Part shown: piece by piece, positions 12,552-57,409 of the stretch
Position numbering within the stretch: position 1 is the stretch's first letter
How the letters are laid out: each line of letters starts with the position of its first letter
IMG/VR virus record: IMGVR_UViG_3300037140_000174
Coordinates: 29,070 to 93,069 of that record
Source: a virus
Length of the DNA: 64,000 nt
Direction: 5' to 3' (one strand)
Position numbers and translations under genes: made by a program
The notes under the pieces: generated by a model
Seen by the model: the letters and a program-made list of their open reading frames with translations, nothing else
What the model was told of the DNA's origin: nothing
Database searches by the model: none

Positions 12552-13199
12552 ATGGAGAAAAGCATGAAACTAAAACCTAACCAAAAATGGACTCAAGACG
12601 TGGTTGATGAAGTCAGGGCTTGTGCAGCTAGAACCCTGTCTTCTGGGGAAACTGCAAAATACATTAGCGATAAACTTGGAAAGTATCTTTCACGAAACAC
12701 TATTATTGGGATTGCTATGCGAGCAAAACCAGTAATCACTTTTGGTGCTCGTCCGCCTCGTGGTGGTAAGAAACGGCAAAAAGTAATTACGCTAACGGCA
12801 CCCAAGAAAATTGAACTTAAAAAGGAGACCGTTAACAACTCTGGTATGAAAGCCATCAACATCAGGCGTAAGCGTGCCAAACTTCTTGAAGAATTACCTG
12901 CTGAGATAGTTGTTGCACCGGAGCCTATTGTTGTTGATGAAGATAAAGCTTGCACAGTATTGGATCTTACATCCAAAAATTGTCATTACCCGATGTGGGG
13001 TGAAACCGCAGGACCTTATGTGTTCTGTGGGTTGCCAACGGCAAAGAAGCCTTACTGTGCTGTTCACAGGCGAATCGCTGGACGTCAATACAATACTTCT
13101 AAACGTGACCCATCAGCGTCCTTGACGGCAGTAATAGTGCCTGAGAAGCCGCCAAAGTCCAAGGACGAATGGTCAACCATGAATACCCGCTTACGCTGA
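12552..13199 (+). CDS. gcrA: GcrA cell-cycle regulator homologue
   Basis: WT.....L...G/LS...IA.....SRN.IIG N-terminus; L.DL....C.YP.....FCG......PYC..H C-terminus. Confidence 0.85.
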   Translation: MEKSMKLKPNQKWTQDVVDEVRACAARTLSSGETAKYISDKLGKYLSRNTIIGIAMRAKPVITFGARPPRGGKKRQKVITLTAPKKIELKKETVNNSGMKAINIRRKRAKLLEELPAEIVVAPEPIVVDEDKACTVLDLTSKNCHYPMWGETAGPYVFCGLPTAKKPYCAVHRRIAGRQYNTSKRDPSASLTAVIVPEKPPKSKDEWSTMNTRLR

Positions 13200-22202: not shown

Positions 22203-24809
22203 CTATACGTCCCGGTGTGACCAAAATTTCCCTAATGGCTCTAATTCAGCCCAGTTCTTGCCAAGAGAAATTTCGATAGATAATGGGACGTTAATCCATT
22301 TATAATCGAACTTTAGCATCTGTTTCATGATAATTTCTAATGCAGGCTCAAGAAGCTTTTCATCTTCAGGAATGAAAAAGCTTAAATCGTCATGCACGTT
22401 CAAAACTGGGTGCATGTACCAGTTTCCAGATTCTGACGCTATTATGGATAGCCTATTCATGGCGTCACACACCAATTCAGCCTCCGCACCTTGAATCGGC
22501 ATATTCACTGCTTGATTCCTGGTCAGTGGGTAGTTGTGCCGCCTTCCAGTGAGTGTCGTAACATATCCCTCATCATAGTAGCGTCTCATGGTCTCATCTT
22601 GCCAAGAGTGGACGCCGGCAAATATTTTCCAGAATTCATCCATTAGGTCGTCCACATCACCTTGATCTACGTCATACTCAGTGGCTGCCGTCAGATACCT
22701 TTTGACTGATGTGGAAGCAGCACCAAAGAAAGCGGGGAAAACTAACTTATTTTTTATTAGAGATCTAAAACCCTTCATTATTTTTGCGTCTTTAATGTTT
22801 TCTTTGCCCCCTATGAGCCCAGGGGCTTTGTGGGCTGCTTTTAGAGCCCATTCCATATGGATGTCGTAGTCCTCCCAAAGAGCTTTCACCAAGTATTTGT
22901 CGCGTGAGCACATAGCCCCGGTGCAAGCTTCTAGCTGCCCATAGTCCACAGCCACCATCAAGTGCCCTTTAGGTGGAACAATTGACTTCCGTACCCAAGA
23001 ATCATTTCTTTTTGGAAAGTTCTGAAGGTTTGGCGAACTACTACTCAGCCTGCCGGTCTCCGTAAATGTGGTGTTGAATGAAGTGTGGAGCTTACCGTCA
23101 GGATAAATAATATCTCCAACCCCAAGCTCAAGCCCATCAACGTAGGTGGATTTGAGTTTGGATTTGTTCCTAAGTTCGACAATCAGCTTAGCCAAAGGGT
23201 GGTCAATTTTATCCAACACATTTTTGTCAACGGAATAGCGAGTGTTATTTTCTTCAACAATTGTCACTTCCTTACGCTTAAGATAATCTCTGAAAAGCTT
23301 GATTGCATCTTCACCCAGTGGGTTGAATTCTTTATTATCCAGTACATACTTTTTGACCACCTTAAGATCATGGATCTTGGCCATGATCAGATTCACTTCA
23401 CCCTCAAGCTTTTTCTGTGAACTCTTTATCTCGTCTTGATTTACAATCACACCTAGGCTTTGCATGATTGCAACAGTGCATTGCCTAGGGAGTGCTTCTA
23501 TGTAGGCATCATAAACCTGAAGCTCTCGCATTATCTCATTTTGAGTAACCCAGAGCTGAAGCGTAATCTTAGTATCTACCCCATTGTAGATCAGTATTTC
23601 ACCTAGGTCAGATTTTGACATATCCTTCTTATCAAGCTTGAAGAAGCTTTTGTAGGAAGTGCCAAAATACTGCTTACATAGGAAATCTAGTTTTTGATAT
23701 GGAGAAGCGTGATCTTCTTCACTGTTGCCTTGTTTGCCTTTACGCTCATCAATGAAATGAGCCTGCATCATGGTGTCTTCCCAGACATCATGCCTGACTA
23801 CATCTTTAGCGTAGAGCCAGATGAACCACTCTAATTCAAAGGGAGCATTGTGAGCTATCTTTATAGTGTCATCACGAAGTATTCTCTGAAACTCAGCACC
23901 AATTTTCAGCTTCTGCTGATCTGTCCATTTTGACTTAGGGTGATCCCAAGCGAAGGCTACGTGGGTAGCCTGAAAACTAATTGCCATCGACATGATGGCG
24001 GCCCCTTTGCTGTACGGCCTCAGCCCTTTGGTCTCAATATCTACGGCTTTGACCTCCGCTTTCTTTGCCTGCTGAAGCAGACCCATCAGTAACGCGAAGT
24101 GCCCAGGTTCAGAACCGTCAAAGCACTGAATCCCAGCTCGCATCTGATCTTCAGTCGGGATGGCAGTAGCAGCACGAAGTTTTGGGGCCAATTCAAAAGC
24201 CCGCTTCAAATCCATTTTGAAGCAATGACCCAACCTTGATCGTAATGGCTTCTTTTTGTCATAAGCCATTTTAATCAAGTCAGTAGGATCATAGGTGGGC
24301 ATGAAATACCCCACCCACTCACCTATTTTGACTTTGAAGATGCGTCCACGCATCCCTACGAGGTCATTTGACCCCAAAACCTGGGATAAGGCACCGTGGC
24401 CTAGACCGATTATTAGCTTTGGATTTGCTGTTTCAATACTCTTTGTGACTAGTGGACGGCAACACTCAGTTTCCTGCCATGATGGCTTCTTAGTGTAGTC
24501 ACGCACTACGTTGTCAAAGGAGCAGAATTTAAGTGTCTCTTCAGGTATTTCTGCAATGTGCAGATTGCCAAACGGTTCCCCAGATTTATCGTCAGCTTCA
24601 GTAGGCCCGCTCCCTAGGAAGTAGACGAGTGTATTTTTAGCCAAAATAGGGGCCATTTTAGGCGTGGTTACGTCCGCCTTGTTAAGCGGGCAGGCGGCAC
24701 AGCCAATGCGTGACAGCGTCTGGGCGCTGGCCTTACCCCCCGACGTTGGACCCCTACCAGTGGCCTTTGCAATGGGTTTACGGGCCGGTTTGGTGAAGAA
24801 AAATGAAAT
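22203..24809 (-). CDS. polA: Family A DNA polymerase with N-terminal UDG-like domain and 3'-5' exonuclease; start extended to ATT
   Basis: DIET and AHN exonuclease motifs; TGRLSS..PNLQN, DYGQLE, N.PIQG, VHD. 51-codon upstream extension carries CAACPL after a GGAGG RBS. Confidence 0.9.
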   Translation of the reverse strand: MSFFFTKPARKPIAKATGRGPTSGGKASAQTLSRIGCAACPLNKADVTTPKMAPILAKNTLVYFLGSGPTEADDKSGEPFGNLHIAEIPEETLKFCSFDNVVRDYTKKPSWQETECCRPLVTKSIETANPKLIIGLGHGALSQVLGSNDLVGMRGRIFKVKIGEWVGYFMPTYDPTDLIKMAYDKKKPLRSRLGHCFKMDLKRAFELAPKLRAATAIPTEDQMRAGIQCFDGSEPGHFALLMGLLQQAKKAEVKAVDIETKGLRPYSKGAAIMSMAISFQATHVAFAWDHPKSKWTDQQKLKIGAEFQRILRDDTIKIAHNAPFELEWFIWLYAKDVVRHDVWEDTMMQAHFIDERKGKQGNSEEDHASPYQKLDFLCKQYFGTSYKSFFKLDKKDMSKSDLGEILIYNGVDTKITLQLWVTQNEIMRELQVYDAYIEALPRQCTVAIMQSLGVIVNQDEIKSSQKKLEGEVNLIMAKIHDLKVVKKYVLDNKEFNPLGEDAIKLFRDYLKRKEVTIVEENNTRYSVDKNVLDKIDHPLAKLIVELRNKSKLKSTYVDGLELGVGDIIYPDGKLHTSFNTTFTETGRLSSSSPNLQNFPKRNDSWVRKSIVPPKGHLMVAVDYGQLEACTGAMCSRDKYLVKALWEDYDIHMEWALKAAHKAPGLIGGKENIKDAKIMKGFRSLIKNKLVFPAFFGAASTSVKRYLTAATEYDVDQGDVDDLMDEFWKIFAGVHSWQDETMRRYYDEGYVTTLTGRRHNYPLTRNQAVNMPIQGAEAELVCDAMNRLSIIASESGNWYMHPVLNVHDDLSFFIPEDEKLLEPALEIIMKQMLKFDYKWINVPLSIEISLGKNWAELEPLGKFWSHRDV

Positions 24810-26140: not shown

Positions 26141-26781
26141 ACTAACCCCTTTGATCTTAAGCGAAGGCTGATAGCTCGAATTGCTTTTTTCGATGTTTCA
26201 AACAAACCGAGATAAAATCTTTCTCCCTTTATTGAAACATCTGCTCTAAATTTATTGTGGTGAGCACGCACATTTACACTCTTAGTTCTTCTCCTATTAT
26301 TGTTTTGAGTATCCCAATCTGCCCAGCAACAATTCCATTTAGCGTAAGGCCCGTCATTATCAATTCTCTCAATAGTTAATCCCTCAGGGGCTTCTCCCAT
26401 ATCAGATAAGAAGTTTTCAAAAACAAGCCATCTAGTACACACCACAATCCCTCTGCCACCATATCGATTATAGGACTTAGCTTTTTTATTTGTGCAGCGT
26501 TGCACCATTGCGTTCCAGACTTGGTTTGTTTTAGATTTTGAAAAATGAGTGGTGTGCCCATGTTTGAAATTTCGTTCACGCCGGTAACACCCACAGCTCC
26601 TTGTGCTCCCGTACCTCAGTTCACCTGACCTAACCAAACAAACGGTTCCACAATCACACTTACACTTCCACCTAAATTGTCCCTTCTTGTTCCCCTTAGC
26701 CCCAATTTCTACTGTATCCCTTGATAATACAATCAACTTTCCAAAACGCTCACCAGTCAAATCTATCAGTTTCTTATTCAT
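26137..26781 (-). CDS. HNH-like homing endonuclease with AP2-like tail
   Basis: DLTG.RFG.L, W.C.CDCG, SCGC, YGGRGI.VC.RW, TIERIDND..Y...NC.W. Confidence 0.85.
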   Translation of the reverse strand: MNKKLIDLTGERFGKLIVLSRDTVEIGAKGNKKGQFRWKCKCDCGTVCLVRSGELRYGSTRSCGCYRRERNFKHGHTTHFSKSKTNQVWNAMVQRCTNKKAKSYNRYGGRGIVVCTRWLVFENFLSDMGEAPEGLTIERIDNDGPYAKWNCCWADWDTQNNNRRRTKSVNVRAHHNKFRADVSIKGERFYLGLFETSKKAIRAISLRLRSKGLV

Positions 26782-27670
26782 TTAATGGTTGCCTGAAAAC
26801 CAATAGGAATTCGTGGGAAGGTACGAGTTTGGTTCCTTTCCAGGCGTTACTAGCACGAGTCGCCGCAGACGCAAAATTCTTACTCAACACCACTTGTTGC
26901 CAGTAAATGAAACCAGCTTCTCGAAAGTTATCTATGGTATGGCCAGGAAAATCAATTAACTCACCTGTTTTTTTATTGCGGAATGGCCCTACGACAATAC
27001 ATACGAAAGCACCCGGCTTCATTAACTTAGCATGAGCTAGAGCACTCAGGAACATGGCCCCATTGAATTCGTCATAGGACGACATGTTGCTTAAGTCATC
27101 AGATTGATCACTGTACTTCTCAAGATCATGGTAGGGCGGGCATGTTAGGGCGAAATCAAACTTGGGTAGTTCAGGATCCAGGAAACGCCCATCACCAAGA
27201 ATATAACTAGCACCAGTGAGGCCAAGAGAATTGAGAACTGCCACGTTTTCATCTATTTGCTCTTGCCTGATGTCAAAGCCGGTGTATTTGTATCCCATGA
27301 TACTAGATACGAGTCCTCTTGGGGGACCCCCCGCAAATGCATCCAAGACGGTGGACCCAGTCGGACCCCCATAACGCAGTAGTATCCATTCGACCAATGG
27401 AGCAGGAAAGACTGATACTGTGCCAGTGTAGACGGAGTCATGATCCTTCCTCATAGTTTCAGCGCGGGAACCGTCATGCCCGGTTTCCCCGGTCAGCCTG
27501 CGCCAATCACGCACGCTGCGGCGGATCAATTCATCAACCCGCCAAACAGTTGTAGTAGTCTGGAACCACAGCTTTCCAGGCCCAGGTCGGACATAACCCT
27601 GCTGAGCACTTAAAAGAAGGGGGCGCTCTGTGTATAAAGTGCGCCCCCCTGAAGTTCGTTTAATTAGCAT
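26774..27670 (-). CDS. DNA amino-methyltransferase (m6A/m4C)
   Basis: Motif I DAFAGG, motif IV TCPPY, S.F...L.E, HE..LVF. Confidence 0.75.
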   Translation of the reverse strand: MLIKRTSGGRTLYTERPLLLSAQQGYVRPGPGKLWFQTTTTVWRVDELIRRSVRDWRRLTGETGHDGSRAETMRKDHDSVYTGTVSVFPAPLVEWILLRYGGPTGSTVLDAFAGGPPRGLVSSIMGYKYTGFDIRQEQIDENVAVLNSLGLTGASYILGDGRFLDPELPKFDFALTCPPYHDLEKYSDQSDDLSNMSSYDEFNGAMFLSALAHAKLMKPGAFVCIVVGPFRNKKTGELIDFPGHTIDNFREAGFIYWQQVVLSKNFASAATRASNAWKGTKLVPSHEFLLVFRQPLNE

Positions 27671-27891: not shown

Positions 27892-28653
27892 TCACTTCCC
27901 TTTCCTGGAAGGCTTCACAACATCGTCCTTATGAGTGAGCCTGAAAACGCCACCAGGAAGCTTTTCAAGCTTGTGGCCCTCACTGGTGAGCTTCGTCAGA
28001 ACATTGTAGAACTTACCTCCAGTAGCCTCCTTGATGTCCTTTGATGTCGCCCCCTTTTCATAGAGTTCTACCGCCTTAGCGGTTTTTGTCCCAATGATAA
28101 TGCCGAATTTATCCTTCGCTCCGGTGATATTAGCGTAACTGGAGGGCTCACGCTTTTTCTTTGGCTGTTTTGCAGCAGGTTTGGCCACCTTGCCACCTCC
28201 CGCAGGCTTCTTGCTCTTTGCTTTTTTGGCGGCTTGAGCTTCAGCTTCTTCATTTTCGGATTCGGCTTCAGCTTCCTCAGAAGCTGAGAGCTCTTCATCA
28301 GACTCAGCGGCTTCCTCAGGTTCATCAGCCGGCTCATCATCAGCTTCTTCAGTGTCATCAGCTTCTTCAACTTCAGCCTCATCTTCAGGCTCATCCTCAG
28401 CCTCTTCAGCGACCTCAGCCTCAAGATCAGGGAACTCCTCAATCTCATTCTTTTTGTTTCTGGCTTCAGTAGCTGCATTAAACCAATCAGCAGCTTCCTG
28501 GGATATGGTATCAAACAGGTCATCGTCCTTGCTGCACGCAATGTCAAAACCACGGATCAATGCCACCAAGTAATCCTGGCGACTGTCAAAATCTTCCTCC
28601 TTTTTACGCATCTTCCATGCTTTACGCAGTTCTTGCTCAATTTCAGACATCAC
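27892..28653 (-). CDS. Acidic/basic protein with C-terminal winged helix
   Basis: Glu-rich linker; DKFG...GTK...A...Y.KGAT..DIKEA.G. Confidence 0.65.
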   Translation of the reverse strand: MMSEIEQELRKAWKMRKKEEDFDSRQDYLVALIRGFDIACSKDDDLFDTISQEAADWFNAATEARNKKNEIEEFPDLEAEVAEEAEDEPEDEAEVEEADDTEEADDEPADEPEEAAESDEELSASEEAEAESENEEAEAQAAKKAKSKKPAGGGKVAKPAAKQPKKKREPSSYANITGAKDKFGIIIGTKTAKAVELYEKGATSKDIKEATGGKFYNVLTKLTSEGHKLEKLPGGVFRLTHKDDVVKPSRKGK

Positions 28654-29225
28654 GCTTGCTCCTGAAGAAGGGACTTGAGCGTCCCAGTGAAGTCATAGTT
28701 ACGGAGTTCATTTAGGCGGGCTGTGTCAAAGCCAAGGATACGCCTTAACCGCATATTGAGGTTTTGGCGCTTTCTTTTGACTTTGGGCTTACCCCTTAGA
28801 GCTTCTGGGTTATTCTCAATAATGTCAAGAGCCATTTGTAGCTCTTCCGGAGCCTCAGCCAACAAGGCTGAGACGTAACCATTGTTCGTCACTTCCCCTA
28901 TACGTCCGGTAGCCAGTTCTGGTGCATCCACCGATGTTTCTTCGTGGACTACACGCTTACGTTTAACGTAGCGTGCGTTATCGTGCATATTGTTGGTCAT
29001 GGCCATTTTGAAGAGGCCCATGAAAATCTGGGGTTCTGTAATTGAGGGGTAGGATTCAACTATCTTCAGGTAAATCAAATAGGCGTCTTGGAGCAGGTCT
29101 TCGAAGTCATTTATCGGATCACAGCGCCATTTATTTCTGCTTATGAAATTACAGGACCATGCTCGTATTGGGCCTTCCCACTTTGGCGTCCAGTTAAGCT
29201 TCGAGCGTAAACGCTTCTGCTGCAT
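28650..29225 (-). CDS. Sigma70 region-2-like phage transcription factor
   Basis: DFEDLLQDAYL.YLK; GGAGG RBS before ATG 29225. Confidence 0.6.
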   Translation of the reverse strand: MQQKRLRSKLNWTPKWEGPIRAWSCNFISRNKWRCDPINDFEDLLQDAYLIYLKIVESYPSITEPQIFMGLFKMAMTNNMHDNARYVKRKRVVHEETSVDAPELATGRIGEVTNNGYVSALLAEAPEELQMALDIIENNPEALRGKPKVKRKRQNLNMRLRRILGFDTARLNELRNYDFTGTLKSLLQEQA

Positions 29226-29255
29226 CGGCCAAGCCTCCAATTAGTGAAGGTGCCG

Positions 29256-51934: not shown

Positions 51935-52660
51935 CGATGAGGGGCGGTCAGTGACTTTGGATCACCAACCGCCCTCACCAATAATTCAGGAGAAGAGGAG
52001 AAATAACGCCTTATGCTGCGGTGTTTTTTGGGTTCGACTGAAGCTGCTTTGCGAGTTGGGGTAGTGGCGTTGGTGACGCTGAGGGATGCCTAAGTATAAC
52101 TAAATTGCCCTTTAGGGGTTTCGCCCCGATTGTGGAGGCCGGGTATTTTTACGTATAGGCCATTTCAAGCGGCACCATGCTTTGTGGGGTTGTGGATTTT
52201 GCTAGCTGGCTTACAGGAATGCCAAAAACTCACGCGGCGCAGTATTTGCGGCGTGACTACGGGGGGCGTGGCATTACTGAAACGAGGACTTGAAACCCCG
52301 CATCAGGCGCTATTCTTTACTACTGTTCACCGCCTTAGTGACGTGGGGCTTTTGGATTGCTATCACTTGCCCCGTCATATCGCGGGTGCGCTTACGTAAC
52401 GGTGTAAGCGATACCTGCAACGCGGGTACAATGTGACCATCCTTTTTGGCTGATTTGTGCCAAAGCTTTAGCTTCATGCTTTGCACACCCTGCGGTGCTT
52501 TATAGTGCACCGCATTTGTAGCCATTGCGCTTGCCACAGCCCGGCTATACTGGCCTACAGCGGCTTTGCCGGGCCTATCACTACGCGGCAACGCATTGAC
52601 CGGCAGGGCCGTATTGCTGGCCCTACGCTTGCCCTTGCTATGCCCGTATTGTGGCGCACG
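51935..52660 (-). ncRNA. Long structured leader of the early operon
   Basis: Dense hairpins (GCCCGGC/GCCGGGC, UGCGGUGC/GCACCGCA, CGCUUAC/GUAAGCG); only a weak ORF (52310..52690). Confidence 0.45.
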
Positions 52661-52664
52661 CATT

Positions 52665-52695
52665 CTTTTAGCCCAAAGTTGTAATAGCACGTCAA
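52665..52695 (-). promoter_or_regulatory. Early sigma70-type promoter
   Basis: TTGACG-N17-GCTAAAAG, Caulobacter-like consensus. Confidence 0.7.
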
Positions 52696-52936
52696 TTGCA
52701 GTAACCGTTAACCGGCTTTTTCACAGCGTTTGAAGTGACCCCAGTTTTTTCGTAGGCCCCGCATTTTGCCGCATGGGCTGGCTACACGTACAGCGTGGCC
52801 AATTCAAACCGGGGCACGAATCACAAATAGCTTTTGGCCCCGGTAACGGGCACACTGGGCAATTGTGCGCCACCAATACCGAAGTCACAACGAGTATCTA
52901 GGAATACTTCCTAATGAGTTATCAACAGTTCTTTCG

Positions 52937-53479: not shown

Positions 53480-53833
53480 CTAGGCAGCAACATGCTGCTC
53501 GTTGTGTTGAGGAACTGACCTGTGCTTGATCAGCTCGATCTTATATACGGTGTAGCCGTTCACAGGTTCTATTGGAACCCGCTTCGCTACGCCATGAGCT
53601 ACAAGGGAAGCTATTTTGTTGCGGTGAGCACCGCCCAAAGCAGCCTTTATCTGTGCCTGGGTAGCACCTCGGGGCCGCAAAGCCATTGCAACAGCGAACG
53701 TATCTTTTGATCCAATGCGGCCAGTTGAATTGGCCTCATTGATCTCATGTGCTGATGGCTTCGGCCCAAAAAGCTTGGTAATCCAGTTATCAACGACCGG
53801 CGTGTATTCACTGTATGCTGACATGATATGCAC
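53480..53833 (-). CDS. DUF3489-like winged-helix protein, paralogue of 56299..56808
   Basis: W..K.FGPKP ... AMALR..GAT.AQI. Confidence 0.65.
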   Translation of the reverse strand: MHIMSAYSEYTPVVDNWITKLFGPKPSAHEINEANSTGRIGSKDTFAVAMALRPRGATQAQIKAALGGAHRNKIASLVAHGVAKRVPIEPVNGYTVYKIELIKHRSVPQHNEQHVAA

Positions 53834-55899: not shown

Positions 55900-55974
55900 G
55901 GTTGGATGAGGCTTCGCCTAGATGAGGCGAAGATAAAGAACAGTGAGATGAGCCAGATGAGGGAGCGGGATGAG
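55895..55974 (+). repeat. Six GATGAG direct repeats
   Basis: Positions 55895, 55905, 55921, 55947, 55956, 55969. Confidence 0.8.
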
Positions 55975-56255
55975 CCCTGTTTATTATTCTTAGGATTTAT
56001 CTTCTGGTTCGTATCCCTCTTAGTGTTCTTCATCTTCGTGTGGTTCTAGGTCTTAGTCTTCTTCCAAACAAATTCCAAACAAATAAAAAGGGCCGCGAAG
56101 CTGGATGCTGCGCGACCCTGGATGTCAGTGGAGCTTGTGAGAACGCGATTTGCGTTTGCGCTTTGGCGAACCATAGTTCAAGGCGAACCATAGCAAGCCA
56201 CCGATAACCGGGCCAATGAAGCTAAGCCACATTTACGACCTTTCATGCTGAAATG

Positions 56256-56289
56256 AAAACGGGCCAGCCCGGTTAAGGGCCAGCCCGTC
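56256..56289 (-). terminator. Rho-independent terminator
   Basis: GACGGGCUGGCCC...GGGCUGGCCCGUUUU. Confidence 0.75.
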
Positions 56290-56298
56290 AATGTGGCA

Positions 56299-56808
56299 TT
56301 ACGCGGTAGCTTGAGCGGGTTCACCTTGCGCAGGCTCATTGACCGGCGCGGGCGGGTTGACCGTAGCAGGCACCGCCTTGGGCTTGCGCGCCTTACCCGT
56401 AGCCTTTTTGACTTTGGGCTTGGCCGGCAAGTCACCCGTTAAAGCGGCGTTGGCGGCCGCCTCACTGGTGCGCTTGACGCGCTCTTCACCTTTGGGTGTC
56501 AAGGTCACCTTGTAAACCGTGTGACCTTGCTCATTGGGGGCTACCATGGCGCGCTTGAAGTCACCTGCCGCAATCAAGCCACGCATGCGGTTGAGTTGAG
56601 GCGCGCCGGTAGCCATCACAATTTGAGCACCGGTTACCCCGTCAACTCGCAAAGCCATGGCATTGGCCAAAGCCTGCTTACCGGGGCGCAAGCCCAACGC
56701 ATGAACGGTTGAAAGCAATTCAGCGGTTGGCTTAGGGCCAAGCTGCTTATCATGCCAGCCCTTGAGCAAGGTTGCGTAGGGCTTCAAGTGGGTTTGAATG
56801 TCAGTCAT
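56299..56808 (-). CDS. DUF3489-like winged-helix early protein with basic Pro/Ala tail
   Basis: LGPKP...GKQALA.AMALR.DG.T.AQI. Confidence 0.7.
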   Translation of the reverse strand: MTDIQTHLKPYATLLKGWHDKQLGPKPTAELLSTVHALGLRPGKQALANAMALRVDGVTGAQIVMATGAPQLNRMRGLIAAGDFKRAMVAPNEQGHTVYKVTLTPKGEERVKRTSEAAANAALTGDLPAKPKVKKATGKARKPKAVPATVNPPAPVNEPAQGEPAQATA

Positions 56809-57004
56809 AGCACATTGCCTTTAAATGCGGTCACCGCTTGTGGCGGCGGGTGACCTGTTGGCCGCATTGCGTAGCACTAGCCCAATGAAGGGCTTTGGCT
56901 AGGGCGCAGCAAGGTTGCTAGGGCTTTTTGAGCCGCACCCTACGTTTGGGCTGTAGGGCCTTGCCGGTGAACCAAGTGGCCTATATGGCCGCTTCAACAC
57001 GCCT

Positions 57005-57033
57005 AACATGGCGCATATGTGCGCCACTGTCAA
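57005..57033 (-). promoter_or_regulatory. Early sigma70-type promoter
   Basis: TTGACA-N17-CATGTT with AT-rich upstream sequence. Confidence 0.7.
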
Positions 57034-57409
57034 TTGCTATACTCACAATTATTTATGCACTCGCAACTAGCCTGCCATGCACCCAAAGCATAGCTTAGGA
57101 GTTGACGCGAGGATACGAACCATTGCAGCCGAGGAACCATACGAACCTGTAGCCTAGGCTACACTTGAGAACCAATAGGAACCAAATGTTGTTGTAGGAT
57201 AAAGAACTAGACGATCAAACAAACAAGGATACACTTGTGCATCAGGCGGACGTTTGTTTGTTTGGAGCTGGACGAACCAGTGGTAGGTAGGTAGGAAGCA
57301 ACGATAAAACAAATAGATACCGACGATGAAAATGGTCCCCCTCCCCCTCCGAGCTCGTGCCTCGTGCGCGGTCGTTGCTGAGATAGAATTCGGAATTTAT
57401 AATTTTGAT

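What the first reader, a model, noticed from the sequence alone, without database searches (positions are those of the whole stretch)
56239..57060. Early promoter island free of [ACG]GA / TC[CGT]: footprint of a sequence-specific DNA modification
Seen (hand count): in these 822 bp, AGA, CGA, GGA, TCC, TCG and TCT together occur twice (56483, 56647). A uniform model gives about 75. TGA/TCA occur about 40 times. The rule holds inside the CDS: Asp/Glu codons are preceded by T, one exception is a forced Glu-Glu pair, and the RBS is AAAGG rather than GGAG. Both exceptions are VGAG, so the avoided motif may be VGAH. The island surrounds the TTGACA promoter at 57005-57033 and ends near 57095. Known: some phages hypermodify short motifs (coliphage CAjan carries preQ0 at GA). 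Inference: virion DNA is modified or protein-bound at VGA(H), and first-transcribed regions are kept clear for host RNA polymerase.
Basis: partly seen in the sequence, partly recalled or inferred. Interest (0 to 1): 0.85.

Follow-up and report, generated by a model that had tools for sequence, protein, structure and literature searches.

The report
Phage early gene lacking VGA/TCB words
One complete early gene unit of an uncultured 93-kb soil phage, and of at least 43 diverged relatives, has been cleared by selection of the three-letter DNA word VGA/TCB on both strands, and other patterns in the same genomes suggest that this word carries a protective mark everywhere else on the phage DNA.

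Summary
Window 56237-57060 holds 2 VGA/TCB words against about 62 expected. Codon shuffles of the gene never give fewer than 11, and the protein allows a minimum of 1.

The island is one minus-strand transcription unit: a sigma70-type promoter, a conserved structured leader, a 169-aa winged-helix-like gene with a basic tail, and a terminator. Forty-three non-redundant relatives carry the same unit, 34 kb in all, with no VGA/TCB inside the defined gaps. Second copies of the gene outside the island use the word freely.

Three results are new here:
- Asp/Glu almost never follows M, W, K, Q or E in island proteins (1 of 534, against 24 of 82 in outside copies).
- VGA/TCB is mildly depleted genome-wide, more in early genes (O/E 0.78) than late ones (0.90).
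- The palindromes GANTC, GAATTC, GACGTC and GAGCTC are purged only when flanked T...A, the one context with no VGA.

The last result points to a genome-wide protective mark or shield at VGA. A conserved orphan amino-methyltransferase is the only candidate writer. DpdA, QueC, ThyA and ThyX are absent. Why the unit must stay word-free is inferred, not shown.

The scan noted the same island earlier in related genomes.

The parts
56237..57060 (.). VGA/TCB-free island (2 exceptions: 56483 and 56647, both VGAG on the gene strand)
57005..57033 (-). sigma70-type promoter: TTGACA (57033-57028), 17-nt spacer, CATGTT (57010-57005). The -35 and a yATGTT/CATATT -10 are kept in relatives
   Evidence: read; alignment; the consensus scan did not list it. 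Inferred, not mapped
56809..56998 (-). conserved structured 5' leader RNA (about 135 nt core plus a variable hairpin before the AAAGG ribosome site); no Rfam family
   Evidence: 39 pairs, 24 with compensatory double changes in 10 sequences; no Rfam match
56299..56808 (-). 169-aa gene: winged-helix-like domain (residues 1-125) plus a Lys/Ala/Pro-rich basic tail; no Pfam, PHROG or NCBIfam family; more than 318 metagenomic homologues
56258..56289 (-). intrinsic terminator (13-bp stem, then T-rich tail); the island ends about 20 bp beyond it
57117..57190 (+). five direct VGAACCA-type repeats just upstream of the promoter; the block 57100-57300 has 18 VGA and 0 TCB on the + strand
56166..56195 (+). 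two more copies of the same repeat just beyond the terminator, so the repeat brackets the island
55900..56100 (-). array of GAAGAAGAC-like and CTCATCY repeats downstream of the unit, kept in W, L001, L002, L003, L006 and L007; possible iterons, operator array or injection-stop-like element (function unknown)
57332..57347 (-). G-rich 16-mer kept 210-280 bp upstream of the island in W, L001, L002 and G1, and present in the L007 contig; function unknown (terminus, cos-like site or terminator not resolved)
52130..52880 (.). second, weaker VGA/TCB-poor island without a clear ORF, upstream of the minus-strand early operon; its position (+3.2 to +4.8 kb) is kept in relatives
53480..53833 (-). second, diverged copy of the winged-helix gene outside the island (about 35% identical in tblastn to the relatives' island genes), with ordinary VGA/TCB content (18 observed, 22.6 in shuffles)
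26774..27670 (-). orphan DNA amino-methyltransferase (motif I DAFAGG, motif IV TCPPY, little room for a target-recognition domain); 65-69% identical in two related genomes; only candidate writer of a mark
12552..13199 (+). GcrA homologue (sigma70 cofactor that reads N6-methyladenine in Alphaproteobacteria); also present in genome G1
   Evidence: role of GcrA from PMC4647560 and PMC3667746

Best explanation
The phage family marks its own DNA at the 3-bp word VGA/TCB. The most likely mark is amino-methylation, probably of the A, written by the conserved orphan methyltransferase at 26774-27670. The mark shields restriction sites that overlap the word.

One self-contained, first-expressed unit is kept free of the word by selection. 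It runs from a host-type promoter through a structured leader and a winged-helix/basic-tail DNA-binding gene to a terminator. It therefore enters each new cell as ordinary unmarked DNA. The region of the main early promoter is kept largely free as well.

The word carries a cost for gene expression that does not depend on strand. The cost is largest where the unmodified host transcription machinery must work first. That gives a gradient: total purge in the immediate-early unit, partial depletion in early genes, weak depletion in late genes.

Shown: the purge, its conservation, its unit-wide boundaries, the gradient, and the flank-dependent survival of palindromes.
Inferred: that the protection is a covalent mark, that this methyltransferase writes it, that the base is A, and that the mark (or a protein that reads it) hinders early transcription.
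For: (1) The purge is under selection. The CDS has 2 words against 21.7 +/- 3.1 in shuffles, with a possible minimum of 1.

(2) It is conserved. Forty-three non-redundant relatives carry a gap of at least 380 bp, 34 kb in all.

(3) Outside copies of the same gene in the same phages are not purged.

(4) The protein sequence is bent by the rule. Asp/Glu follows M/W/K/Q/E in 1 of 534 cases in island proteins, against 24 of 82 in outside copies.

(5) The boundaries match what RNA polymerase touches. Where a -35 TTGAC is found, most islands start 17-59 bp upstream of it. The island ends a median 69 bp after the stop codon.

(6) A protective effect of the word is visible in 363 kb of family DNA:
- GANTC flanked T...A: 11 observed, 72 expected. 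The other palindromic flanks are not depleted (47/46.6, 17/18.7, 25/31).
- GAATTC, GACGTC and GAGCTC flanked T...A: 2 observed, 19.3 expected.
- Palindromic GANNTC in the T...A context: 7 of 257, against 124 of 892 for non-palindromic cores (p = 4e-8).
- TGA-N-TCA has O/E 0.06, and only at spacing 1.
- 343 kb of unrelated viral DNA shows no such effect.

(7) The family is under strong restriction pressure. GGGCCC, CCCGGG, CCGCGG, GGCGCC, CGTACG, ACCGGT and CTGCAG have pooled O/E of 0.05-0.20. No palindrome with an internal VGA falls below 0.54.

(8) The word has a cost. Against codon shuffles, O/E is 0.78 in early and 0.90 in late genes of this genome, equal for both orientations. In G1 it is 0.77 and 0.83, in G2 0.80 and 0.89. 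Unrelated viral ORFs give 1.04.

(9) A candidate writer is conserved with intact catalytic motifs in three genomes. A GcrA-type methyl-adenine reader is present in both complete genomes.
Against: - No modification was observed.
- The specificity of the methyltransferase is unknown. Its relatives in cultured phages are only 30-38% identical. It is equally intact in genome G1, whose island is only partly purged.
- Simple N6-methyladenine or N4-methylcytosine is not known to block bacterial RNA polymerase (own knowledge). The equal purge of both orientations does not fit a modified template base being misread. It needs a duplex-level obstacle such as a reader protein.
- The plain test of palindromes with an internal word gives only a weak trend: pooled O/E 0.82 against 0.74, Mann-Whitney p = 0.19. 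An earlier check of this scan on a relative counted the same test against the mark.
- GANTC with VGA on both strands is kept less well (O/E 0.49) than with VGA on one strand (about 0.76, my estimate from the counts). The shield model does not predict this.
- The known hypermodification routes are absent.
Confidence: 0.42

Rival explanations
1. Pre-early immune cassette in the manner of T5. VGA/TCB is the recognition word of a DNA-cutting, nicking or base-damaging activity that works in the first minutes of infection. This could be the phage's own host-DNA-destroying enzyme, paired with the methyltransferase as in chlorovirus short-word systems, or a factor conserved across hosts. The unit that must work at that time survives because it has no sites. 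Its product, or later entry of the rest of the genome, then protects the remainder.
For: - The purge is unit-wide, strand-symmetric and sensitive to single sites.
- Depletion is graded: early genes more than late genes.
- The island is flanked by dense repeat arrays, which recalls the T5 injection-stop region. DnaA-box-like nonamers lie upstream of the island in L006 (T5 in 10.1101/866236).
- There is precedent that only the leading region decides restriction sensitivity (PMC12455610).
- The word is the same across relatives with GC from 0.45 to 0.61, which argues for a factor carried by the phage rather than a sporadic host defence.
Against: - Without a protective mark it does not explain why GA...TC palindromes are purged only in the T...A context.
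- The 270 bp between the conserved G-rich element and the island, and the DNA just past the terminator, are unusually rich in the word. The island is therefore not a clean word-free leading end.
- No terminus could be mapped. The contig closes on itself with a 143-bp overlap.
- No candidate nuclease co-varies with island strictness.
- No nuclease with a 3-bp degenerate site is known from bacteria or phages (own knowledge).
Confidence: 0.2
2. Self-avoidance by a DNA-coating protein. The island's own product, a winged helix with a linker-histone-like basic tail, or another early protein, binds duplex DNA at VGA cores. It coats host and phage DNA, blocking polymerase and shielding overlapping restriction sites. 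Its gene and the early promoter patches lack the word so that they stay accessible, like nucleosome-free regions.
For: - The conserved cargo of every island is a DNA-binding-type protein, not an enzyme.
- The cost of the word does not depend on orientation, as expected for a roadblock on the duplex.
- The repeats that bracket the island all have VGA cores.
- A NusG-like antiterminator heads the late operon, which fits the weaker depletion of late genes.
- Excluding T before GA is the kind of rule a clash with the thymine methyl group gives (inference).
Against: - A shield made after entry cannot protect incoming DNA from restriction, yet the palindrome pattern implies protection at that stage. 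Co-injection or two-step entry would have to be added.
- A single winged helix rarely reads only 3 bp.
- The fold matches are weak: Foldseek E about 4e-3, VIA Z at most 5.4.
- The outside copies keep the same putative recognition helix in L070, which makes no distinction.
Confidence: 0.15
3. A by-product of composition, codon usage, recent horizontal transfer of a GC-rich gene, or a context-specific mutation process such as a TC-directed deaminase.
For: The island is richer in G+C than its flanks: 0.575 in this phage, and 0.563 against 0.491 pooled over relatives. CAA/TTG and AAG/CTT are enriched in this island, as a TCB-to-TTB process would leave.
Against: - Shuffles that keep composition and the gene's own codons never come near the observed count.
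- The rule holds in non-coding DNA and on both strands.
- It is kept in relatives at 47-88% protein identity while outside copies ignore it.
- A C-to-T process would lower G+C, not raise it.
- TGA/TCA are not depleted.
Confidence: 0.02

Closest known systems
First-step-transfer (pre-early) DNA of phage T5/BF23, and the leading region of T7-like phages (10.1101/866236; PMC12455610)
   Same: A small first-used part of the genome is the only part where recognition sites decide survival. It is kept free of them and lies next to complex repeat arrays. Its products free the rest of the genome.
   Different: - Here the banned word is a 3-bp degenerate, non-palindromic word, not a 5-8-bp restriction site.
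- The purge covers exactly one transcription unit rather than several kb.
- Position at a physical end, and two-step entry, are not shown.
- No A1, A2 or Ocr homologues were noticed among the proteins scanned.
Motif-specific guanine replacement by DpdA (dPreQ0 at GA in phage iggy, at GA and GGC in CAjan; PMC10484667, PMC7544227)
   Same: A 2-3-nt word centred on GA is marked genome-wide and protects restriction sites that contain it.
   Different: - The genome has no DpdA/TGT or QueC gene.
- TGA is exempt here, whereas iggy modifies about 97% of all GA.
- No word-free island has been reported for those phages.
Short-word methyltransferases and nickases of chloroviruses (for example CCD, RGCY, GpC words) and Mom of phage Mu (about 15% of adenines in a degenerate word); own knowledge
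   Same: Very short degenerate words are marked densely on viral DNA. A word of two fixed bases plus one three-fold degenerate base has a precedent in CCD.
   Different: No cognate nuclease and no Mom-type enzyme was identified here. Those systems are not known to keep an unmarked early unit.
GcrA/CcrM epigenetic transcription control of Alphaproteobacteria (PMC4647560, PMC3667746)
   Same: The phage carries a GcrA homologue and a DNA amino-methyltransferase. GANTC is under-represented and shows a special flank rule.
   Different: CcrM reads GANTC, not VGA. GcrA activates rather than blocks transcription. Any link between the phage GcrA and the word is untested.

Membership tests
DpdA-type 7-deazaguanine DNA modification | DpdA (tRNA-guanine transglycosylase family, PF01702) encoded by the phage | tested here: not met
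   no match at E <= 1 in the genome, which CheckV estimates as 100% complete. The positive controls matched.
DpdA-type 7-deazaguanine DNA modification | preQ0 synthesis genes (QueC, PF06508) | tested here: not met
   no match
DpdA-type 7-deazaguanine DNA modification | modified base detected at the motif | not testable with these tools
No signal-level data were available.
5-hydroxymethyl-pyrimidine based hypermodification | ThyA-like hydroxymethylase (PF00303), or ThyX | tested here: not met
   no match. Only a dCTP deaminase is present.
T5-like first-step-transfer region | lies at the first-entering physical end or in a terminal repeat | not testable with these tools
   The contig is circularly closed with a 143-bp overlap. 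No reads could be obtained.
T5-like first-step-transfer region | free of the sites that are attacked, while the rest of the genome has them | tested here: met
T5-like first-step-transfer region | adjacent injection-stop region of repeats, palindromes and DnaA boxes | tested here: inconclusive
   Repeat arrays flank the island in all relatives. DnaA-box-like nonamers were seen only in L006.
DarT-type ssDNA ADP-ribosylation target (TNTC and relatives) | four-base motif with a specific T two bases before the target T | tested here: not met
   T at position -2 of the surviving TCA is not depleted (0.222 against 0.218). The motif definition comes from PMC11543638.
DNA amino-methyltransferase (N6_N4_Mtase) | SAM-binding motif I and catalytic (D/N/S)PPY-type motif IV | tested here: met
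   DAFAGG and TCPPY are invariant in three genomes. Pfam E = 1.7e-11.
DNA amino-methyltransferase (N6_N4_Mtase) | specificity for VGA or TCB | not testable with these tools
   No characterised close relative exists.
MarR-like / winged-helix DNA-binding proteins | winged helix-turn-helix fold | tested here: inconclusive
   The model has pLDDT 75 overall and 85-90 for residues 11-110. Foldseek matches MarR proteins at E about 4e-3, probability 0.96-1.0. VIA gives Z 4-5.4 to assorted winged helices. There is no Pfam hit.

The most novel reading that the evidence does not exclude
These phages run a simple chromatin-like code. Their own methyltransferase writes a mark on every VGA, about one site per 13 bp. 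A phage protein reads the marked word on the duplex; the island's winged-helix/linker-histone-like product and the GcrA homologue are the candidates. Binding both shields restriction sites and closes the DNA to naive host polymerase. Word-free patches (one whole immediate-early unit and the early promoter region) are the only open DNA on arrival, so transcription timing is written into the distribution of a 3-bp word.
Probability: 0.15. Interest if true: 0.92.

Novelty: new variant of a known kind. Interest (0 to 1): 0.8.

Why it matters
If the reading holds, a 3-bp word is enough to tell self from non-self on phage DNA, and its absence defines the first gene to be used. Three things would follow.
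- A DNA mark and its sequence rule could be predicted from sequence alone: look for a word-free early unit together with flank-dependent survival of restriction palindromes.
- A new family of early DNA-binding proteins and a new structured leader RNA would be open to study.
- Early notes of this scan, unchecked by me, report other phage families that ban other short words (CCW, AC/GT, CA/TG, ATG) in an early unit. The same principle may explain them.

It also shows selection on a DNA word strong enough to forbid certain dipeptides in a protein.

Tried and rejected
As a result no depth, termini or read-level signs of modification could be examined, and read laying was not used.
- No related record was found in the cultured-phage collection by DNA or with the island protein. 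The best polymerase relatives are only about 32% identical.
- Rfam: no family at gathering threshold or at permissive E-values. No tRNA genes.
- Gene-content comparison of this genome and G2 (strict islands) with G1 (partly decayed island) gave only weak candidates: a DoxX membrane protein, two homing-endonuclease-like ORFs, and a weak ECF-sigma-like ORF. None is a nuclease or writer. The methyltransferase is intact in all three.
- The nonulosonic-acid gene cassette noted earlier has no counterpart in G1, so it is not part of the conserved system.
- In relatives whose island gene was not purged, no alternative trinucleotide was banned. Several of these (L070, L078, L086, L108) turned out to be outside second copies.
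- Palindromes that end in VG are not rescued by a following A. This is a weak hint that the marked base is the A. It was not used as evidence for the mark itself.
- The conserved G-rich 16-mer was searched in viral contigs. Most of the 42 hits were chance matches in high-GC contigs, which were reused as negative controls. Contig ends did not coincide with it in family members.
- The ESM Atlas lookup was uninformative.
Full report
THE OBSERVATION

In window 56239-57060 the six trinucleotides AGA, CGA, GGA, TCC, TCG and TCT occur twice (TCT at 56483, TCG at 56647). TGA and TCA occur 43 times. The window's own frequencies predict 61.6.

The window is part of a 93,069-bp viral contig that closes on itself with a 143-bp overlap. 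CheckV estimates it as complete. Genome-wide the word occurs once per 12.9 bp, and the three gaps of this island (414, 247, 164 bp) rank 1st, 2nd and 4th longest. In 38 unrelated viral loci (343 kb) the longest gap is 85 bp.

For the coding part, shuffling the gene's own synonymous codons gives 21.7 +/- 3.1 words, never fewer than 11 in 5000 trials. Genome codon usage gives 31.6 +/- 4.3. The lowest number this protein allows is 1, and 2 are observed. The 252-bp non-coding part has none against 23.9 +/- 4.3 for mononucleotide shuffles. A model keeping its own dinucleotides gives 5.4 +/- 2.3, with about 0.5% of simulations at zero.

No other k-mer is banned. TGAT, and GATC as TGATCA, are present. 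The rule is exactly "GA only after T, TC only before A", on both strands.

WHAT THE ISLAND IS

It is one minus-strand transcription unit with four parts:
- a sigma70-type promoter: TTGACA at 57033-57028, a 17-nt spacer, then CATGTT;
- a leader of about 190 nt;
- a 169-aa ORF at 56808-56299;
- a strong intrinsic terminator at 56289-56258.

The leader is a conserved structured RNA. In ten phages, 24 of 39 predicted pairs show compensatory double changes. Rfam has no match.

The protein has no Pfam, PHROG or NCBIfam family but more than 318 metagenomic homologues. Its model (pLDDT 85-90 over residues 11-110) has helices, a beta wing and a long helix, followed by a disordered Lys/Ala/Pro-rich tail. 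Matches to MarR-type and other winged-helix proteins are weak. I read it as a DNA-binding protein with a basic tail like that of linker histones. This is an inference.

CONSERVATION AND INTERNAL CONTROLS

Seven IMG/VR loci and 59 metagenome loci encode relatives. Forty-three non-redundant loci carry a VGA/TCB-free gap of 380-1619 bp around the gene, 34 kb in all. By construction the gaps contain none of the words.

Where extra small genes follow the main gene, the island extends over them. In L003 it spans three genes and 1412 bp.

Where a -35 TTGAC is found, most islands begin 17-59 bp upstream of it. They begin a median 184 bp before the ATG and end a median 69 bp after the stop codon. In other words, the island covers the DNA that RNA polymerase must bind and traverse to make the protein.

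A few lineages (G1/L005, L007, L077, L067) are only 2-4-fold depleted.

Several phages, including this one (53480-53833), carry a second copy of the gene outside the island. Those copies use the word freely.

The DNA rule has reshaped the protein. Asp or Glu follows M, W, K, Q or E (residues with no T-ending codon) in 1 of 534 cases in 38 island proteins. The composition-based expectation is 22%, and six outside copies show 24 of 82.

Isolated exceptions inside islands are mostly VGAG (6 of 10, against a 17% background) and never VGAA. The harmful word is therefore closer to VGAH.

SURROUNDINGS

The bins next to the island are unusually rich in the word, and the word is polarised by strand.
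- Seven VGAACCA-type direct repeats bracket the unit: two at 56166-56195 and five at 57117-57190.
- Arrays of two other repeats lie downstream and are shared by relatives.
- A G-rich 16-mer sits 210-280 bp upstream in W, L001, L002 and G1, and is present in the L007 contig.
- A second, weaker island (about 52130-52880, no clear ORF) lies upstream of the early operon and keeps its position in relatives.

The phage encodes:
- a PolA with a UDG-like domain, an intein-bearing DnaB, a RecA, a sliding clamp and clamp loader, a primase and a dCTP deaminase;
- a NusG-like antiterminator at the head of the late operon;
- an orphan amino-methyltransferase;
- a GcrA homologue.

GcrA is a methyl-adenine-reading sigma70 cofactor of Alphaproteobacteria (PMC4647560, PMC3667746). 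It points to an alphaproteobacterial host. G1 has one too.

WHAT READS THE WORD?

Known hypermodification routes are absent. There is no TGT/DpdA, QueC, ThyA or ThyX. Known DarT motifs do not fit: T two bases before the surviving TCA is not depleted (motif from PMC11543638).

Two genome-wide patterns bear on the question.

First, the word has a cost everywhere.
- Against synonymous-codon shuffles, every tested gene has fewer VGA/TCB than expected.
- O/E is 0.78 in early and replication genes and 0.90 in late genes, the same for both orientations.
- G1 gives 0.77 and 0.83, G2 gives 0.80 and 0.89.
- 176 ORFs of unrelated viral contigs give 1.04.

Second, the word protects.
- The family avoids many 6-bp palindromes very strongly: GGGCCC, CCCGGG, CCGCGG, GGCGCC, CGTACG, ACCGGT and CTGCAG have pooled O/E of 0.05-0.20. 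None of these contains the word. The ten palindromes with an internal VGA/TCB all have O/E of at least 0.54. Taken alone this is not significant (p = 0.19).
- Palindromes that begin GA and end TC become "wordless" only when flanked T...A. Exactly that context is purged in 363 kb of family DNA. GANTC has 11 observed against 72 expected, while A...T, C...G and G...C flanks are at expectation. GAATTC, GACGTC and GAGCTC have 2 against 19.3.
- Palindromic GANNTC cores sit in the T...A context in 7 of 257 cases, against 124 of 892 for non-palindromic cores (p = 4e-8).
- The effect occurs only at the spacings that make restriction-type sites and is absent from unrelated viral DNA.
- The simplest reading is that restriction-type selection removes these sites unless a VGA overlaps them. 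That means VGA on this DNA is modified or shielded when restriction enzymes meet it.
- Palindromes that only share the V and G with the word are not rescued. This hints that the A is the marked base.

The only conserved candidate writer is the methyltransferase at 26774-27670. Its motifs are DAFAGG and TCPPY, it has little room for a recognition domain, and it is 65-69% identical in G1 and G2.

MOST LIKELY MECHANISM

Confidence is about 0.4 for the whole chain. My estimate for a protective mark or shield at VGA on its own is about 0.6.

The phage marks VGA genome-wide. The mark protects overlapping restriction sites but costs expression in a strand-independent way, most where naive host polymerase acts first. 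The immediate-early unit is therefore kept word-free and arrives unmarked. Its DNA-binding product then acts on the rest of the genome.

The weak links are these:
- No mark has been seen.
- Methyl groups are not known to stop bacterial polymerase, so a reader protein is probably needed.
- The writer is also intact in G1, whose island is only partly purged.
- GANTC with VGA on both strands is kept less well than with VGA on one strand.

RIVALS

- A T5-like pre-early cassette immune to a VGA-reading nuclease (0.2). It fits the unit-wide purge, the gradient and the repeat arrays. Without a mark it does not explain the flank rule. Word-rich DNA abuts both ends of the island.
- Self-avoidance of a VGA-binding coat protein (0.15). 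It fits the cargo and the orientation-independent cost. It cannot shield incoming DNA unless the protein is co-injected or entry is in two steps.
- Composition, gene transfer or a mutation process (0.02). The controls contradict it.

RELATION TO EARLIER NOTES OF THIS SCAN

The same VGA/TCB-free unit was noted before in related genomes (e1-3409407, e1-5906962, e1-5906973, e1-5980795, e1-5975944). One later check priced the covalent-mark reading at 26/100 because palindromes holding the word were kept no better than others. I repeated that test and also find only a weak trend. The sharper flank-dependent test does separate the classes, and it moves my odds for a mark or shield upward.

Notes on other phage families that ban other short words in an early unit suggest a general principle. 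I did not test them.

NOVELTY

I searched the paper library and found no published description of a promoter-to-terminator purge of a 3-bp word, or of flank-dependent survival of restriction palindromes. The nearest known cases are leading-region site avoidance (T5, T7-like phages) and GA-directed deazaguanine marks. I file this as a new variant of those kinds, with a real chance that it is a new kind of mark-and-reader system.

Noticed in passing
window 56809-56998 (-); L006:9805-9966, L050:786-977, L082:275-462 and others: The 5' leader of the island gene is a conserved multi-helix RNA with invariant unpaired stretches and many compensatory pair changes. It has no Rfam family. It may be a protein-binding or riboswitch-like regulator of the first gene.
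   Followed up: partly
whole genome; also G1 and G2: The 7-bp palindrome TGANTCA is almost absent: 1, 4 and 3 copies, where about 16-23 are expected from the flank margins. Other GANTC contexts are present. Overall GANTC is at about half of expectation.
   Followed up: yes
whole genome; also G1 and G2: Several GC-rich 6-bp palindromes are very strongly avoided (CCGCGG 0 of 12.4 expected, GGGCCC 1 of 20.4, CAGCTG 2 of 30.6 in this genome). This shows heavy Type II restriction pressure on the family.
   Followed up: partly
window 57332-57347 (-): A G-rich 16-mer is kept 210-280 bp upstream of the island in W, L001, L002 and G1, and is present in the L007 contig. It could be a terminus or cos-like site, a terminator, or a G-quadruplex element.
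   Followed up: partly
window 55900-56100 and 57100-57300: Strand-polarised repeat arrays flank the island. One 200-bp block has 18 VGA and no TCB on the + strand. The neighbouring block on the other side is the reverse (1 against 14).
   Followed up: partly
L006:9600-9760: Three DnaA-box-like nonamers lie just upstream of the island promoter in one relative. This recalls the DnaA boxes of the T5 injection-stop region.
   Followed up: no
window 32864-35332 (-): The DnaB-like helicase gene is interrupted by an intein with a LAGLIDADG homing-endonuclease domain.
   Followed up: no
window 22203-24656 (-): The family A DNA polymerase carries an N-terminal UDG-like domain. Together with a bona fide dCTP deaminase (30455-30958) this may bear on uracil handling.
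   Followed up: no
window 28650-29240 (-): A 196-aa ORF has weak ECF-sigma similarity (E = 0.003). It is present in this genome and G2, but tblastn does not find it in G1, the genome with the decayed island.
   Followed up: no
It is therefore an accessory of this phage, not of the family.
   Followed up: partly
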